From the NCBI RefSeq assembly GCF_044324875.1, contig NZ_CP172185.1: a stretch of DNA of 64,000 bases, one strand, 5' to 3'. Source of the DNA: Escherichia coli. GTDB taxonomy: Bacteria > Pseudomonadota > Gammaproteobacteria > Enterobacterales > Enterobacteriaceae. The stretch's first letter is position 1. The number at the start of each line of letters is the position of its first letter. This document shows, one piece after another, positions 36,337 to 42,300 of the stretch. A program made the position numbers.

Positions 36337-39300
36337 GGTTATGCGCTGATGCCTGATGCGGCGCGGGCGCGTCTTATCATACCCTGGAAGTCTGCGCCCG
36401 AATCGTAGGCCGCCTCCGCTATATTAACTGGCATTGGCAAATTACTCGTCACTACCTTTATTCATGTTTTTTTGGTCTTCATCCGGATAGTGTTTTTTTA
36501 GATATTCCAGGACGTTTTTATTGACCTTGTGTTGGGTATACACCCACCCTTTCCAGTAATCAGGCTGGTCCAGGTAAACTTCTGGCGGAATGGTAAAATC
36601 AGAAAGCGTTAACCATTCGGCTAACAGATCGGGGTTTCGTTTCTGGATTAACTGCAACAGCATAATCAGTGACATAGCTGAGGCAGGAGCCGTACTATCG
36701 CCACTTAAATATTTCCACACTGTTGACCGGTTCGAACGAAAAAGGATCGGTAGCAATGCCCGGTCCAGATTCATTTCATTAAAAATCTTCTCAAATTCAT
36801 TCATTTAAATTTTCCTGCCTGGCGTAAACCTCTTAAAAATTGAGATTTATCAAAGAAACGCATTTTAGCACACATCAGGAACCGCTTCACGTTTAGTCCA
36901 GAAACAGAATTTATTTCGCTTATCAAAACAAGTCTTTACTCTTTTTTACATTGAAAGAGCACAAAATGATTTTCGATTTTATTTATATAAGAAACATTTT
37001 TTGTTTCTTATTGGTGGTGTTTACGCTTACACCAGACAAAAATGCGCTTTACATCACACAAATGGCGGCGTAGATTTCGATTAAATTGCAACGCAGATTA
37101 ATTCTTATAACAACGTTTTACGTTGCTTATAGAAACAAATATGTGACTTACTTTGAAAGAGAAAAAATGCATGAAAACTGTAAAGCTGTCTTTACTGGCT
37201 GTCGTTGTTGCTACCGCGGTAAGTCCATCTGCGTTTGCGGGTGATACTGTTGAGGCGGCAACGACAGAATTAACGGTAATCCAGCCAGGAATGTCGCAAT
37301 CGGAAATTGATCAGAAAATTGGTCGATTTTTAGAAAGGACAGGGAATAGTGTAGCCGCACAAAATTATCTGATTGCGCATGATTACCAGACAACGACGCC
37401 TCAGGAAAATACAGCTGCTTCTCCCGTACAGCCCACCAATACGCTGAACCCGATAACCAATCAAGCGCAGACCGACCGCGACAACGGGCAGGATACCGCC
37501 ATTCAGGACGCGCAGCACGCCGCCAACTGGGCTTCACTGAAAGCTGATGACGCGTAGCACGCCATCACGGTGGCGCAGACGGATATTGATGCCAATACAG
37601 CCGCCATCACCGATACCCGTAATGATGTCTCCGCAGTGCAGTCAGACGTCACCAACATAAAAGGCGATGTCGCACATGCCCAGTCAACGGCTGACCATGC
37701 CAACGCTAACGCCAACACCGCTCTGATTAACGGCGTCAAACTTTCCGGTGCTGTGACAGAAAACAAAAACAACATCGAACAGAACCGCAGCGATATTGCT
37801 GACCAGCAGAAACTGTTGGCATCAAACGAGCAAAAACAGACCGACCGCGACAACGGGCAGGATACCGCCATTCAGGACGCACAACATGCCGCCAACTGGG
37901 CTTCACTGAAAGCTGATGACGCGCAGCACGCCATCACGGTGGCGCAGACGGATATTGATGCCAACAAAGCCGCCATCACCGACACCCGTAATGATGTCTC
38001 CGCAGTGCAGTCAGACGTCACCAACATAAAAGGCGATGTCGCACATGCCCAGTCAACGGCTGACCATGCCAACGCTAACGCCAACACCGCTCTGATTAAC
38101 GGCGTCAAACTTTCCGGTGCTGTGACAGAAAACAAAAATAATATCGAACAGAACCGCAGCGATATTGCTGACCAGCAGCAACAACTCGACGAAACCCGGA
38201 AAACCGTTGCCGCCACCGGGGATGTGCAGACTGCCGCCCGATATCAGAGCATGATTGACGCCAGACAGACAGCCGCTGCCAATGCGCAACAGGCACAAGC
38301 TGACACCCAGCAGCAACAAATGGACGATCAGCAGAAACAAATCGACGCGACGCAAAAAACGGTTTCCGCACTTGGCGATGCCCAGACCAACGCACATTAT
38401 CAAGAGATGGTTAACGCCGGACTGAGAGCACAAAATGATGCGAATGCGCGTACTGCAGCAGAACAAAAACAAAAAATAGATACTCTGGCGACTAACCAGG
38501 CAACGCAACAGCATATCGATAGTGTGCAGTACGGGGAACAAATTCAGCGTCTGGCGCAAGACTCAACACAAACGCATGAACAAATTGACAGCCTGACACA
38601 AGACGTAACCCAAACGCATCAGCAGTTAAGCAACACGCAAAAACGAGTAGCGGATAATAGCCAGCAGATTACTACGCTCAATAACCATTTCAGTTCGCTG
38701 AAAAACGAAGTTGAGGACAACCGTAAAGAAGCCAATGCGGGAACTGCATCAGCCATCGCTATCGCCTCACAACCACAGGTGAAAGCCGGTGACTTTATGA
38801 TGATGTCAGCGGGAGCGGGAACCTTCAACGGTGAATCTGCGGTGTCTGTCGGAACATCTTTTAATGCCGGAACGCATACCGTGATTAAAGCCGGTGTCTC
38901 TGCGGATACGCAATCTGATTTCGGCGCGGGTGTCGGCGTGGGATATTCTTTCTAATATTCCAATCCTCAATATAAATAAGAGCAAGGAAGCTTGCCGGGT
39001 TTCACCTCTTCATTAATTTGTACATTATTTAAGGTTAACAATGATGAAAAGCTCCATTAAATCGTTTTCCCTGCTGGCGGTTATATTACTGGCTGGCTGT
39101 AGTTCACCCACTTCCCGCATCGCAGATTGCCAGGCGCAGGGCGTCAGCCATGACACCTGTTATCTCGCAGAACAACAGCGTCAGACGGCTATTTTAAGTG
39201 CATCCGAGGCGCAGGCATTTAAAAATGCAGAAGCCGCACAACATGCCCAGGCGGCAAAGAAAGCCATTTATAAAGGATTTGGAATGACCTTTAGAATGAG

Positions 39301-42300
39301 CAGTAAAAACTTTGCTTATCTCAATGATTCATTATGTGCAATTGATGAAGACAATAAAGATGCCACTGTTTATCAGTCAGGTCTGTATAACGTCATTGTT
39401 TATCATCACACAGGAAAAGTCGCCTTAATGAAGGAAGGTCAATTTGTGGGTTATTTAAAATGAAGGAGCAAAGGAAAATACCCCTGACGCATATTATGAT
39501 TATCGGTGCGTTTATTTTTGCCTTCTTGCAAGTAGTATTATTAGCCTCCCTGGTTCACGCTGTGAATGTTAACAACGAAATCCAGGAAGGCTTATTTCAG
39601 TCGGGGCGCATTATGGTAGAAAGTTTGCAGCATATTCTTTCGGTGCAAACGGGGATTAACTGATTTTCACCCCGCCCGATGATGACAGCAGCCGGAGAGA
39701 TTTTCGATAATCGGGCAGTCGGCGCTGTCATCGCCAGGGCAGGCATTCGCCAGCGCCAACAGCTGGTTGCGCATGGATTGCAGTTCTTCGATATGTCGCT
39801 CGATCTCCGCCACTTTCTCCAGGGTGCGACGTTTGACGTCGGCACTGTGACGCTGCGGATCGTTAAACAGATTCACCAGCTCGCCGCTCTCTTCCAGGTT
39901 AAAGCCCACCTGGCGTGCCTGGCGCAGTAAGGTCAGTTCGTTGAGATGCTGCTGCGTGTAGGTTCGATAACCATTTTCGCTGCGCATCGGCGGCGTCACC
40001 AGCCCCTTCTCTTCATAGAAGCGAATGGCTTTGCTGGTCAGGCCGGTAATTTTTGCTACATCGCTAATGTTCATCGTTCGCGCAACGCCTCCTGTGCTTT
40101 GTTAAAGGGTTTCAACAGATAATCCAGCACGCTTTTTTTGCCGGTGCGGATATCGACCGTCGCCACCATACCGGGGAATATCGGAAACTGCTGTTTGCTT
40201 TTATTTTCCAGATGGTTGCTGAAAGTGCGAATGTACACCCGATAGTAATAAACATCGCGCCGCACTTCATCCTGCACGGTGTCTGGTGATATCACCGCCA
40301 CTTCTCCCGGCAGGCCGCCGTAGATGGAGTAATCGTAGGCGGTTATTTTCACCAGCGATTTTTGCCCCGGATGGATAAACGCCACATCGCGCGGGGAGAT
40401 TTTTGCCTCGATCAGCAGTTGCTCATCCAGCGGCACGATGGTCATCAGTTTACCACCGGGGGCAATAACGCCGCCAACCGTGGTGACGTCAATGTCCTGA
40501 ACAATGCCACGTACCGGCGCGGTAAAGTTGAGCCGGGTGAGAGAATCTTCCCGCCCGCGGATCACCGAACGCTGGGTTTCCACTTCCGCATTGGCTTTCG
40601 CTAACTCTTCGCGCGCCTGAACGTAATATTGCGTGCGCACGTCGCTAAGTTTGTTTTCCAGTTCATTGGCCTGGCGTTGCAGGCGCAGCACTTCGACGCT
40701 GCTCGCCGCCCCCTGTTTCACCAGCGGCTGGGTCATCGCCAGTTCGCGGTTGACCAGGCTAATCCCCTGCGTCAGCCCGGTGGTGGCTTTGTTCAGCCCA
40801 TCGCGGCGAGTGTTGTACAACGCCGTTTCCGACTCGATAAGTTCGGGGAATTTATTCAGTTCGTCAGGGAAGACCAGCGGTTTATTACTCACTTCCGCCC
40901 GCAGCCGCGCCGAGGTTGCCAGCGCCGCGTACAGCCGCGACATTGCTTCCTGGACGTCGGATTCCGTTTTGGTGCGGTTAAGCTGCGCCAGCGGCTGGCC
41001 CTGTTCAACAATATCGCCAACCTTGACGTCGAGATGATACAGAATTCCGCCTTCCAGCGACTGCACCACCTGTTCGCGCCCGGAAGGTTCTACCGTGCCG
41101 CTGCCGGTGGTGACTTCATCAAGCTGGAAGTACCACGCCCAGCCGAGAAAACAGAGCAGCATCACAGCGGTAACGCGTACCGCCAGCGCCGAACGCGGCA
41201 GGCGGGGTTCAGTCAGGCCACGGTTGTATTGCAGTTGTCCATTCATGCGGCAGACCCCTTATTCTTCTCCTGCAACACCACCCGTCGCGTCGTGGGTTCG
41301 CCCTGTTCACGCAAAATGGCCTCTTTCGCGCCATCCATCACAATCCGCCCCTGATCCATCACGATAATGCGGTCCACCAGTTGCAGCATCGCCGTGCGGT
41401 GAGTGGCGATGACCAGCGTGCGATGCCCAATCCACTGTTTCAGTTGTTCGATTAAATACGCTTCCGCCATTTCGTCCAGCGAGGCGCTGGGTTCATCGAG
41501 CAGCACGATATTGGGTTGAGAGATGAGCAGCCGCGCCAGCAGCAGCGTTTGCCGCTGACCACCAGAGAGGCCAAATCCCCCTTCCTGAATCATGTAGTTG
41601 AGGCCGTTTTTCTGCTTCTGCACAAACGGCAGCGCCCCGCTGAGGGTTAACGCGCGTTCGATATCTTCATCGCTGGCTTCCGGCATCCCCATCGTCAGGT
41701 TTTCCCGCAGCGAACCGAAAAAGAGTCTCCCGGTCTGGCTCAGCAGCCCCATGTCGCGGCGCAGATCCGCCGGATCAAGCTGACCGATGCTGATGTTATC
41801 CAGCAGCACCTGCCCCTGCTGGGCGATACGCATTCCGGCGAGCATTTGCAGTAGCGTTGATTTACCCGCGCCGTTGCGCCCAAGAATGGCGATTTTCTCT
41901 CCGGCCTGAATGTTGAGTTTGCCAATCGCCACATCGGCAATTTTCTCTTCTTCGTCGTAATAAAAGATAGCGTTGCTGAACTGATAATTGCCGTGTAGCA
42001 CCGCTTTATGCACCAGTTTGCCGTGCTCCGGCTGATCCACCGGGCGCTTCATCAGTTCATCAAGTCCGTTGCGCGCCACTTTCGCCTGCTGCCAGCGCGA
42101 GAGCACGCCGGATATCTGCGACAGCGGCGCGATGGTGCGCGAAGCCAGGATCGTCGTCCCGACCAGCGCGCCGGTAGTCATGTCACCGTTCATTACCATA
42201 AAGCAGCCCACCAACAGCACCACCACGTAGACGATGGATTGCACTTCCTGCGTCCAGGTGAGCAGTAGCCCGGTGAGAAAACGTTGCTTCATGCTGATGG

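What the first reader, a model, noticed from the sequence alone, without database searches (positions are those of the whole stretch)
39041..39663. Translationally coupled lipoprotein plus small transmembrane protein pair adjacent to cueR
A 140-aa lipobox protein (LLAGC) and a 67-aa single-TM protein overlap by ATGA and end 4 nt from the cueR stop on the opposite strand. No function is recognisable. The pairing of a lipoprotein with a small membrane protein next to an adhesin gene could indicate an accessory or regulatory envelope module.
Basis: seen in the sequence. Interest (0 to 1): 0.35.

Follow-up and report, generated by a model that had tools for sequence, protein, structure and literature searches.

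The report
Orphan lipoprotein pair tied to adhesin
The lipoprotein and the small membrane protein are real, conserved genes of the known E. coli island OI-29. The lipoprotein belongs to a rare, unnamed family that sits directly behind one type of trimeric surface adhesin gene in at least nine named genera of enteric bacteria (plus unnamed metagenome bins), so it is probably a dedicated partner of that adhesin; being next to cueR is a coincidence.

Summary
A 140-aa lipobox protein (39041-39463) and a 67-aa single-TM protein (39460-39663) overlap by ATGA and end 3 nt before the convergent cueR stop.

Both are under purifying selection (dN/dS about 0.05 and 0.15-0.3). They form the right end of island OI-29 (window 36257-39666). 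The lipoprotein is z0638. It is transcribed in O157:H7, co-regulated with its neighbours, and its deletion did not change motility.

Neither protein matches Pfam, NCBIfam, PHROGs, PADLOC or PDB sequences.

Across species-representative genomes, 15 of 26 long homologues lie directly downstream of a YadA-anchor trimeric autotransporter (TAA), at different chromosomal sites. None of 24 control loci does (p = 4e-6). cueR adjacency is specific to Escherichia.

The lipoprotein is modular: a lipid anchor, a Cys-stapled helical N domain, then a small beta-barrel. It is predicted to be outer-membrane-anchored. The third gene varies between lineages.

The best reading (about 0.4) is a TAA-dedicated periplasmic accessory lipoprotein. 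It would resemble SadB or TpgA in role but is unrelated to them in sequence and fold. This function is inferred, not shown.

A side finding: primer mapping shows that the published "transcription factor GmrA" (z0639) is the TAA itself.

The parts
39041..39463 (+). Lipoprotein, 140 aa, orthologue of z0638 of O157:H7 EDL933. Layout: signal peptide with LLAGC lipobox; Cys30-Cys40 helical hairpin; Ala/Gln-rich helix (37-69); QHAQ motif; small 8-stranded beta domain (75-140).
   Evidence: ORF and sequence. The z0638 primer arms flank exactly this ORF. 37 of 37 homologues have a lipobox and S/T/V/Q at +2. AF2 model with C-domain pLDDT of about 90. dN/dS about 0.05. Transcribed at RPKM 20 in DMEM.
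39460..39663 (+). Small protein, 67 aa. Basic N-terminus (K2, R5, K6), one TM helix (about 12-35), and a 32-residue acidic C-terminal tail with the conserved motif HA[VI]-x2-N-x-E...[FY]QS. Its start overlaps the lipoprotein stop (ATGA at 39460-39463).
   Evidence: Orthologues with the same 4-nt overlap occur in Escherichia sp. E1V33, E. whittamii, a Pseudocitrobacter MAG and P. faecalis. dN/dS 0.15-0.32. PGAP annotates it as WP_000664216.1.
37171..38955 (+). Trimeric autotransporter (z0639 = 'GmrA' = ECs0548 'Saa-like'). It has a signal peptide, no head domain detected, a coiled-coil stalk built of about 110-aa repeats, and a YadA anchor. In this window an in-frame TAG at 37555-37557 interrupts it.
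   Evidence: Pfam YadA_anchor E = 8e-12. Translation and stop codon. The gmrA primer arms and cloning primers map to its ends. The gene is intact with three repeats in the closest relative.
36442..36804 (-). 120-aa conserved hypothetical protein (z0640), divergent from the autotransporter gene. It travels with the cassette in Pseudocitrobacter, Rahnella, Yersinia aleksiciae, Ewingella, Serratia silvae and Symbiopectobacterium.
   Evidence: No family match; only a weak HTH-like hit to MqsA_antitoxin (E = 0.08). All relatives are unnamed.
36257..39666 (.). Island OI-29 (S-loop 43): a 3.4-kb insert between the convergent stop codons of ybbJ (36254-36256) and cueR (39667-39669). GC is 0.36-0.46 at its two ends, against 0.53-0.56 in the flanks.
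   Evidence: BLAST of the K-12 junction against the window. K-12 annotation. Composition profile. Presence is all-or-none in E. coli.

Best explanation
The two ORFs are genuine genes at the 3' end of a mobile four-gene cassette: z0640-like gene (-), headless YadA-anchor trimeric autotransporter (+), lipoprotein (+), variable small third gene (+).

The lipoprotein is exported and lipidated at Cys20. Because it lacks Asp at +2, it is most probably sorted by Lol to the inner leaflet of the outer membrane. It projects a disulfide-stapled helical stalk and a small beta-barrel into the periplasm.

Its most likely role is a dedicated accessory factor of the adjacent autotransporter. It would help or stabilise the insertion, trimerisation or anchoring of the 12-stranded anchor barrel from the periplasmic side. 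That is the kind of job done by SadB for SadA and by TpgA for AtaA.

The 67-aa protein is an N-in/C-out inner-membrane protein made in fixed ratio with the lipoprotein through translational coupling. It is inferred to bind or modulate the lipoprotein in Escherichia and Pseudocitrobacter only.

Shown here: gene reality, selection, lipobox, architecture, genomic linkage, transcription. Inferred: localisation, any physical contact, and the helper function.
For: Linkage. In species-representative genomes, 15 of 26 long homologues have a YadA-anchor ORF directly upstream on the same strand (gaps of -38 to +327 nt, one at 1.9 kb). None of 24 loci carrying only the N-domain lipoprotein does (Fisher p = 4e-6).

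The loci lie at different chromosomal sites (ybbJ/cueR, fetA/qmcA, thiM, wrbA-yccJ) in named genera Escherichia, Pseudocitrobacter, Enterobacter, Phytobacter, Rahnella, Yersinia, Ewingella, Lelliottia and Pantoea.

A variant with only the C domain also lies downstream of a TAA, on a mobile element.

Pairwise divergence of TAA anchors and lipoproteins is correlated (Mantel r = 0.52, 0 of 2000 permutations), with both diverged by up to about 80%.

In E. coli the four genes are present or absent together: 1412-1416 of 5426 genomes.

z0638, gmrA (the TAA) and z0640 are co-regulated in O157:H7. RPKM values are 20, 96 and 44 in DMEM and 0 on HeLa cells; qRT-PCR changes are -10.6, -8.5 and -5.2-fold (PMC5826968 Table S3).

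Precedent: SadB and TpgA are lipoprotein or periplasmic helpers encoded beside TAAs (PMC3953254; bioRxiv 10.64898/2026.01.22.700529).

The lipid anchor + helix + beta-domain layout parallels the layout of SadB.
Against: Eleven of 26 long homologues have no TAA nearby, and some sit among housekeeping genes. The lipoprotein can therefore persist alone.

It is unrelated to SadB, YajI or TpgA in sequence and predicted fold.

It lies downstream of the TAA, not upstream, and is predicted to go to the outer membrane, not the inner membrane.

A linker-concatenated AF2 trimer gave no confident oligomer: pLDDT 57, pTM 0.28, with helix confidence falling.

Co-transcription with the TAA is not shown. The 85-nt spacer has no significant structure in E. 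coli, but Pseudocitrobacter has a terminator-like hairpin there.

Deleting z0638 gave no motility phenotype, and deleting all of OI-29 did not change adherence to HeLa or Caco-2 cells. TAA display itself was never measured.

The third gene is not conserved.
Confidence: 0.4

Rival explanations
1. The lipoprotein is an autonomous envelope protein. Its small beta-barrel would bind or inhibit some periplasmic or host factor, as the barrels of MliC/PliC/ACP lysozyme inhibitors do. It merely travels in the same horizontally transferred cassette as the autotransporter, with no functional dependence on it.
Confidence: 0.25
2. The pair is part of a trans-envelope sensing or regulatory device. The outer-membrane lipoprotein would report the state of the autotransporter or surface contact to the small inner-membrane protein, and on to the z0640 product, tuning expression of the cassette or of motility genes.
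For: The cassette contains an outer-membrane-type lipoprotein, an inner-membrane protein and a conserved divergent 120-aa gene with a weak HTH-like hit. OI-29 genes are switched off together on host-cell contact. Deleting the TAA gene changes fliA/fliC expression. Known precedents are RcsF and NlpE (from general knowledge).
Against: The small protein has only 6-12 cytoplasmic residues and is absent from most lineages, where it is replaced by a soluble 70-80 aa protein or by nothing. z0640 has no established DNA-binding domain. Deleting z0638 or z0640 left motility and fliC/motA expression unchanged.
Confidence: 0.12
3. The 67-aa ORF is not a functional protein, or the pair is a decaying remnant. 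The overlap and the hydrophobic stretch would be accidents of AT-rich island DNA.
For: No family match anywhere. Taxonomic range is narrow. It evolves faster than the lipoprotein (42% against 72% identity to Pseudocitrobacter). There is no direct evidence of translation. The TAA in this window carries a stop codon.
Against: Length (64-68 aa), the ATGA overlap, the TM segment and the HA[VI]..N.E...[FY]QS motif are all kept across lineages whose synonymous sites are saturated. dN/dS is 0.15-0.32 among Escherichia. The ORF is kept at 95-99% identity in most of the 1416 genomes.
Confidence: 0.08
4. The pair is a phage-derived two-component module: a spanin-like lysis pair or a Cor/Bor-like exclusion lipoprotein with a partner.
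For: An outer-membrane lipoprotein gene overlapping the gene of an N-in single-pass membrane protein superficially recalls o-/i-spanins. There are weak PHROG hits to Rz-like spanin and Cor (E = 0.03-0.3).
Against: Those hits cover only the signal peptide and lipobox. tblastn finds no match in 50,697 phage records. The sizes are inverted relative to spanins: a 120-aa lipoprotein and a 32-aa periplasmic tail. No lysis or phage genes are nearby. PADLOC gave no match to either protein of the pair; its only hits were weak, sub-threshold matches on the autotransporter's coiled coil.
Confidence: 0.03

Closest known systems
SadB (Salmonella/E. coli), helper lipoprotein of the trimeric autotransporter SadA (PDB 4C47; paralogue YajI, 2JWY)
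   Same: Both are small lipoproteins encoded beside a TAA on the same strand in Enterobacterales. Both have the layout lipid anchor, then helical stalk, then C-terminal beta domain. Both are lost together with the adhesin in strains that lack the island.
TpgA (Acinetobacter sp. Tol 5), peptidoglycan-binding periplasmic partner of the TAA AtaA
   Same: Both are periplasmic or outer-membrane-associated proteins genetically linked to a TAA. TpgA is proposed to act on the anchor from the periplasmic side.
   Different: TpgA has BamE-like and OmpA_C-like domains. Neither is detected here.
MliC/PliC/ACP family of periplasmic or lipoprotein lysozyme inhibitors
   Different: Identity is 7-13%. Pfam MliC does not match. 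The catalytic-site-plugging motif is not conserved. Foldseek is not significant.
z0638 of O-island 29 (EHEC O157:H7 EDL933), as published
   Same: It is the same gene: the published deletion primers flank 39041-39463 exactly.
   Different: The literature lists it only as a hypothetical protein with no motility phenotype (PMC5826968). It was not described as a lipoprotein or as linked to the TAA. The 67-aa ORF is not mentioned.

Membership tests
Bacterial lipoprotein (Lgt/LspA/Lnt substrate) | N-terminal signal peptide ending in a lipobox [LVI][ASTVI][GAS]C | tested here: met
   LLAGC with Cys20. 37 of 37 homologues carry a lipobox.
Bacterial lipoprotein (Lgt/LspA/Lnt substrate) | Sorting signal: Asp at +2 gives inner-membrane retention; otherwise Lol transport to the outer membrane | tested here: met
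   The +2 residue is S, T, V or Q in 37 of 37 homologues and never Asp. Outer-membrane location is therefore predicted, but not measured.
SadB/YajI TAA-helper lipoproteins | Sequence homology to SadB or YajI | tested here: not met
   phmmer and two profile searches of all PDB sequences at E <= 10 do not return 4C47 or 2JWY.
SadB/YajI TAA-helper lipoproteins | C-terminal Ig-like beta-sandwich of MATH topology | tested here: not met
SadB/YajI TAA-helper lipoproteins | Inner-membrane lipoprotein (Asp at +2) | tested here: not met
   Ser at +2 here. SadB has Asp at +2 and fractionates with the inner membrane.
SadB/YajI TAA-helper lipoproteins | Trimeric N-terminal coiled coil | tested here: inconclusive
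   The monomer model has a 33-residue helix (pLDDT 46-76). Three copies joined by linkers gave pLDDT 57 and pTM 0.28. No true multimer prediction was available.
SadB/YajI TAA-helper lipoproteins | Encoded next to a TAA gene on the same strand, and lost together with it | tested here: met
   15 of 26 species-level loci. Presence is all-or-none in E. coli. However, the gene is downstream of the TAA, not upstream.
SadB/YajI TAA-helper lipoproteins | Increases surface display of the cognate TAA | not testable with these tools
   This needs deletion and complementation with a TAA display assay.
TpgA-type TAA partner | BamE-like and/or OmpA_C-like peptidoglycan-binding domain | tested here: not met
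   No Pfam family at E <= 1.
MliC/PliC lysozyme inhibitors | Match to the Pfam MliC/PliC models, and conserved SxSGAxY and Lys loops | tested here: not met
   No Pfam hit. In the 21-sequence C-domain alignment only Y-x-x-G, Y and G-K are conserved, and the Ser positions vary.
MliC/PliC lysozyme inhibitors | Eight-stranded antiparallel beta-barrel fold | tested here: inconclusive
Two-component spanin (Rz/Rz1-like) | Phage lysis-cassette context; o-spanin lipoprotein plus i-spanin with a long periplasmic coiled coil | tested here: not met
   No phage match. PHROG hits have E >= 0.028 and cover the signal peptide only. The periplasmic tail of the TM protein is only about 32 aa.
Lpp/OprI alanine-zipper lipoproteins; TraV; XAC1346 family | Score above the NCBIfam cut-off | tested here: not met
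   14.8 bits against a cut-off of 43; 19.6 against 44.75; 19.6 against 120. Similar sub-threshold hits were found for N-domain-only relatives.
Trimeric autotransporter (the neighbouring gene) | C-terminal YadA_anchor domain, N-terminal signal peptide, coiled-coil stalk | tested here: met
   PF03895 at E = 8e-12 over residues 402-461. The signal peptide MKTVKLSLLAVVVATAVSPSAFA is visible. No head domain was detected.

The most novel reading that the evidence does not exclude
The z0638-family lipoprotein, with its lineage-specific third gene, is a third class of dedicated trimeric-autotransporter helper, structurally unrelated to SadB and TpgA. It would be outer-membrane-anchored and specific for short, headless 'Saa-like/GmrA' autotransporters. 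The most recent systematic survey would have missed it, because that survey required a YadA head domain. The N (stalk) and C (barrel) modules can be fused, split into adjacent genes, or swapped.
Probability: 0.3. Interest if true: 0.6.

Novelty: new variant of a known kind. Interest (0 to 1): 0.4.

Why it matters
Only two helper proteins for trimeric autotransporters are known: SadB and TpgA. A 2026 global survey reported no others. That survey analysed only adhesins with a YadA head domain, and no head domain was detected in the adhesin here, so it would have been left out.

A third, unrelated helper family would show that dedicated periplasmic partners are a recurrent solution in type Vc secretion. 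It would also give a small, tractable system, since some of these autotransporters are only about 240-360 aa.

The locus lies in O-island 29, which is carried by EHEC O157:H7, UTI89, RS218, APEC O1 and about a quarter of complete E. coli genomes. Its central gene is in the literature as a cytoplasmic transcription activator, although the sequence is that of a secreted outer-membrane protein. Recognising the cassette for what it is changes how the published motility phenotype should be read.

Tried and rejected
1. Curated libraries. Pfam, NCBIfam, PHROGs and PADLOC gave nothing above threshold for the lipoprotein, the small protein, z0640 or the alternative third genes.

2. PDB by sequence and by two profiles: nothing.

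3. SadB-like fold: rejected.

4. Lysozyme-inhibitor motif: rejected on the C-domain alignment.

5. Spanin or phage origin: no phage match.

6. Trimer test. Three mature copies joined by 40-residue linkers, with a 16-row alignment, gave low confidence and no support. This is a crude substitute for a multimer prediction.

7. AlphaFold-database fold search: the library was not available.

8. Large proteins (LRR_5, zf-BED) at the tail of the exhaustive search (E = 1e-8 to 1e-4) look like spurious repetitive matches and were discarded.

9. Intergenic RNA structure between the TAA and the lipoprotein is not significant (z = 0.57). The promoter and terminator scans were no better than shuffles.

10. 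Neighbourhoods of the N-domain-only lipoproteins share no common gene.

11. Literature searches for XAC1346 and for the RefSeq protein accessions found nothing.

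
Full report
**1. The observation**

- ORF 39041-39463 (+) encodes 140 aa beginning MMKSSIKSFSLLAVILLAGC|SS. This is a textbook lipobox with Cys20.
- ORF 39460-39663 (+) encodes 67 aa: MKEQRKIPLTH-IMIIGAFIFAFLQVVLLASLVHAV-NVNNEIQEGLFQSGRIMVESLQHILSVQTGIN. It has one hydrophobic segment long enough to span a membrane (maximum 19-residue hydropathy 2.65).
- The ATG of the second ORF overlaps the TGA of the first, giving ATGA.
- cueR (NCBIfam PRK10227, 308 bits) runs on the other strand from 39667. Three bases separate the two stop codons.
- The upstream "adhesin" carries a YadA_anchor domain (E = 8e-12).

**2. Are they real genes?**

Yes, for the lipoprotein. Very probably, for the small ORF.

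- The 623-bp lipoprotein+small-ORF segment is present once per chromosome in 1416 of 5426 complete E. coli genomes, mostly at 95-99% identity.
- Orthologous pairs occur in Escherichia sp. E1V33, E. whittamii, a Pseudocitrobacter MAG and P. faecalis. They keep the same 4-nt overlap and a 64-68 aa second ORF.
- Nei-Gojobori estimates give dN/dS of about 0.05 for the lipoprotein and 0.15-0.32 for the small ORF among Escherichia.
- Against Pseudocitrobacter, synonymous sites are saturated. Even so, the frame, the length, the TM segment and the motif HA[VI]-x2-N-x-E...[FY]QS persist.
- The small protein has basic residues before the TM segment and a net acidic tail after it. The positive-inside rule therefore predicts an N-in/C-out topology.
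- A VHA|V site after the hydrophobic stretch could also be a signal-peptidase site. However, the 21-residue hydrophobic core is long for a cleavable signal peptide. That is my own inference and was not tested.

**3. Where it sits**

- The window is Escherichia chromosome.
- In K-12 the stop codons of cueR and ybbJ abut.
- In the window, K-12 homology breaks at 36251 and resumes at 39667. So 36257-39666 is a 3.4-kb insert.
- GC is 0.36-0.46 at the two ends of the insert, against 0.53-0.56 in the flanks.
- This insert is O-island 29 of O157:H7 EDL933 (S-loop 43 of Sakai), described as a 2,643-bp island with z0638, z0639 and z0640 (PMC5826968; PMC2323221).
- I mapped the published lambda-Red homology arms onto the window and onto an OI-29-carrying strain listed in that paper's Table S4 (06-00048, locus L001). 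The z0638 arms flank 39041-39463 exactly, so z0638 is the lipoprotein.
- The z0640 forward arm abuts the start of the 120-aa minus-strand gene 36442-36804 with no mismatch. The reverse arm matched poorly (13-14 mismatches).
- The gmrA (z0639) arms and the cloning and FLAG primers (ATGAAAACTGTAAAC... and ...GAACGAATATCCCACGCCG) match the two ends of the YadA-anchor gene.
- The 67-aa ORF is not named in that work. The z0638 deletion leaves it intact.

**4. What is already known about z0638**

- Its deletion and its complementation had no effect on motility.
- Deleting the whole island did not change adherence to HeLa or Caco-2 cells.
- It is transcribed: RPKM 20.4 in DMEM and 0 on HeLa-attached cells, and -10.6-fold by qRT-PCR.
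- This is in step with the autotransporter gene (RPKM 96 to 0) and z0640 (RPKM 44 to 0) (Table S3).

**5. What the proteins look like**

- Neither protein matches Pfam, NCBIfam, PHROGs, PADLOC or any PDB sequence, even with profiles.
- An exhaustive profile search of 1.84 billion representatives found only 152 proteins at E <= 0.001. The family is rare.
- An AF2 model built on a 20-sequence alignment shows three elements: a short helix (23-32) joined by a conserved Cys30...Cys40 pair to a long Ala/Gln-rich helix (37-69), followed by eight short strands (75-140) at pLDDT of about 90.
- Foldseek finds nothing at E < 0.07.
- The MliC functional motif is not conserved: only Y-x-x-G, Y and G-K are invariant.
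- All 37 homologues examined have a lipobox and S, T, V or Q at +2, never Asp. By the Lol rule this predicts an outer-membrane anchor.

**6. The family is modular**

- The N domain occurs alone as 63-69 aa lipoproteins in Buttiauxella, Atlantibacter, Silvania, Aeromonas and Pseudomonas.
- The C domain, including the QHAQ motif, occurs alone behind an ordinary signal peptide.
- In Citrobacter and Symbiopectobacterium the two domains are adjacent, separate genes.
- In Lelliottia, Kluyvera and Enterobacter soli the same N domain carries a different C domain.
- The fusion and fission pattern argues that stalk and barrel work together.

**7. The neighbourhood is the informative part**

- A scan of one genome per species returned 51 loci. 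I called ORFs in all of them and searched with iterated profiles for the four cassette proteins.
- Of 26 loci with a long homologue, 15 have a YadA-anchor ORF directly upstream on the same strand. In 14 of them the gap is -38 to +327 nt.
- None of the 24 loci with only the N-domain lipoprotein has one within 6 kb (Fisher p = 4e-6).
- The named genera are Escherichia, Pseudocitrobacter, Enterobacter, Phytobacter, Rahnella, Yersinia, Ewingella, Lelliottia and Pantoea.
- The flanking genes differ between genera: ybbJ/cueR, fetA/qmcA, thiM/thiD, wrbA-yccJ.
- Two cassettes lie next to large serine recombinases.
- A C-domain-only relative also lies downstream of a TAA, on a plasmid-like contig.
- A z0640 homologue sits divergently upstream of the TAA in many of these loci.
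- Pairwise divergence of TAA anchors and lipoproteins is correlated (Mantel r = 0.52, 0 of 2000 permutations). This shows co-inheritance over deep divergence, not physical contact.
- In E. coli the TAA 3' end, the pair and z0640 are found in 1412, 1416 and 1415 genomes respectively.
- cueR adjacency is therefore incidental. TAA adjacency is the conserved feature.

**8. The third gene is not conserved**

- The small TM protein is confined to Escherichia and Pseudocitrobacter.
- Rahnella, Serratia silvae and an uncultured enterobacterium instead have a 70-81 aa protein without a hydrophobic segment. It overlaps the lipoprotein stop by 4 nt in four of the five loci; in S. silvae it starts 6 nt downstream.
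- Pantoea conspicua has a 69-aa protein with a C-terminal TM segment.
- Enterobacter has no third gene.
- None of these third genes matches a family.

**9. The most likely mechanism**

I commit to the following, at a confidence of about 0.4. The lipoprotein is a periplasmic, outer-membrane-anchored accessory factor dedicated to the adjacent headless autotransporter. It would act on biogenesis or stabilisation of the anchor. The 67-aa protein would be an inner-membrane partner made stoichiometrically through translational coupling.

The precedents are SadB and TpgA, reported as the only TAA helpers described so far (PMC3953254).

Membership in either family is excluded:

- There is no sequence or fold similarity.
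- The gene lies downstream of the TAA, not upstream.
- The +2 residue is Ser, not Asp.
- There is no BamE or OmpA domain.

A crude trimer test gave low confidence and no support for a coiled-coil trimer.

Against the helper model:

- Eleven of 26 long homologues stand alone.
- Co-transcription with the TAA is unproven. There is a terminator-like hairpin in Pseudocitrobacter and nothing significant in E. coli.
- No phenotype has been reported.

The main rival, at about 0.25, is an autonomous binding or inhibitor barrel that merely co-travels with the adhesin. A sensing module (0.12), a non-functional small ORF (0.08) and a phage-type pair (0.03) are less likely.

**10. Novelty**

- The genes are annotated, and the island is known.
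- What appears to be unreported is that z0638 is a lipoprotein of a rare modular family, and that this family is systematically linked to one TAA subfamily.
- The 2026 survey of TAA neighbourhoods found no helper beyond SadB and TpgA. It analysed only TAAs with a YadA head domain. No head domain was detected in the TAA here, so the survey would have excluded it.
- I rate this a new variant of a known kind (TAA-linked accessory lipoprotein), with the function unproven and moderate interest.

**11. Side finding**

- The gene published as the transcriptional activator GmrA is the autotransporter itself. It has a signal peptide (MKTVKLSLLAVVVATAVSPSAFA), a coiled-coil stalk, and a YadA anchor ending ...GVGVGYSF. 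Such a protein is expected to be secreted into the outer membrane.
- In this window the gene also carries an in-frame TAG (37555-37557) where its own second repeat and the closest relative have CAG.

Noticed in passing
window 37171-38955 (+): The gene published as 'GmrA, transcriptional activator of fliA' (z0639, PMC5826968) is this YadA-anchor trimeric autotransporter. The paper's deletion arms, cloning primers and FLAG-tag primer map to its two ends. A protein with a signal peptide and an outer-membrane anchor is hard to reconcile with direct promoter binding. An earlier Sakai annotation called it 'Saa-like' (ECs0548).
   Followed up: yes
window 37555-37557: There is an in-frame TAG in the autotransporter gene (GACGCG-TAG-CACGCC). 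The second repeat copy in the same gene, and the closest relative (strain 19KM1831, L067), have CAG. The adhesin is therefore truncated after about 128 codons in this strain, or this is a sequencing error. The lipoprotein and the small ORF remain intact.
   Followed up: partly
window 37440-38300; L001 8040-9056; L067 1400-3556: The stalk of the autotransporter is built from a unit of about 110 aa (…QTDRDNGQDTAIQDAQHAANWASLKADDAQHAITVAQTDIDAN…). Copy number varies between strains: one in the OI-29 strain 06-00048 (338 aa), two in the window, three in 19KM1831. The C-terminal part of the TAA is also much more divergent within E. coli (mostly 80-95% identity) than the lipoprotein pair (mostly 95-99%).
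   Followed up: partly
L067 1036-2507: In strain 19KM1831 the RefSeq annotation starts the 'YadA-like family protein' at an internal codon (349 aa), although the reading frame is open from MKTVKL (about 715 aa). Automated annotation seems to truncate this repeat-rich gene.
   Followed up: partly
window 40071-40166: The cueR ATG overlaps the stop codon of the HlyD-type type I secretion gene (40071-40074). K-12 sequence upstream of cueR aligns with at least the last 92 nt of that gene. This suggests that the K-12 ybaT-cueR spacer is a remnant left by loss of the SiiEA-like adhesin/T1SS island, rather than the ancestral state.
   Followed up: partly
window 36300-36420: Between ybbJ and the z0640 homologue there are GC-rich palindromic units of REP/BIME type (for example gccggataaggcgtttacgccgcatccggc). 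They lie at the left junction of the island.
   Followed up: no
L016 6408-6653; L020 6408-6650; L021 6408-6629; L025 6492-6707; L027 1317-1529: In Rahnella, Serratia silvae and an uncultured enterobacterium, the slot after the lipoprotein holds a conserved 70-81 aa protein with no hydrophobic segment (MKKxxTDxFKHLxxEQQxxCL…GHxATLSKF…VSW). It overlaps the lipoprotein stop by 4 nt in four of the five loci (6 nt downstream in S. silvae). It has no match in Pfam or NCBIfam.
   Followed up: partly
L053 6001-6700; L055 40-760; L034 6001-6620; L037, L042, L051: The lipoprotein family shows domain shuffling. In Citrobacter and Symbiopectobacterium, the N-domain lipoprotein and the C-domain protein (with its own signal peptide) are adjacent separate genes. 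In Enterobacter soli, Lelliottia and Kluyvera, the same N domain is fused to an unrelated C domain (…DPLREASFSANGL…ASWNK…).
   Followed up: partly
L002 9050-10936; L063 6712-8493: In Pseudocitrobacter faecalis and on a plasmid-like metagenomic contig, the TAA-lipoprotein cassette lies beside a large serine recombinase. In L063 it is again next to Band_7/NfeD genes (qmcA/ybbJ-like). This hints at how the cassette moves and at a preferred neighbourhood.
   Followed up: no
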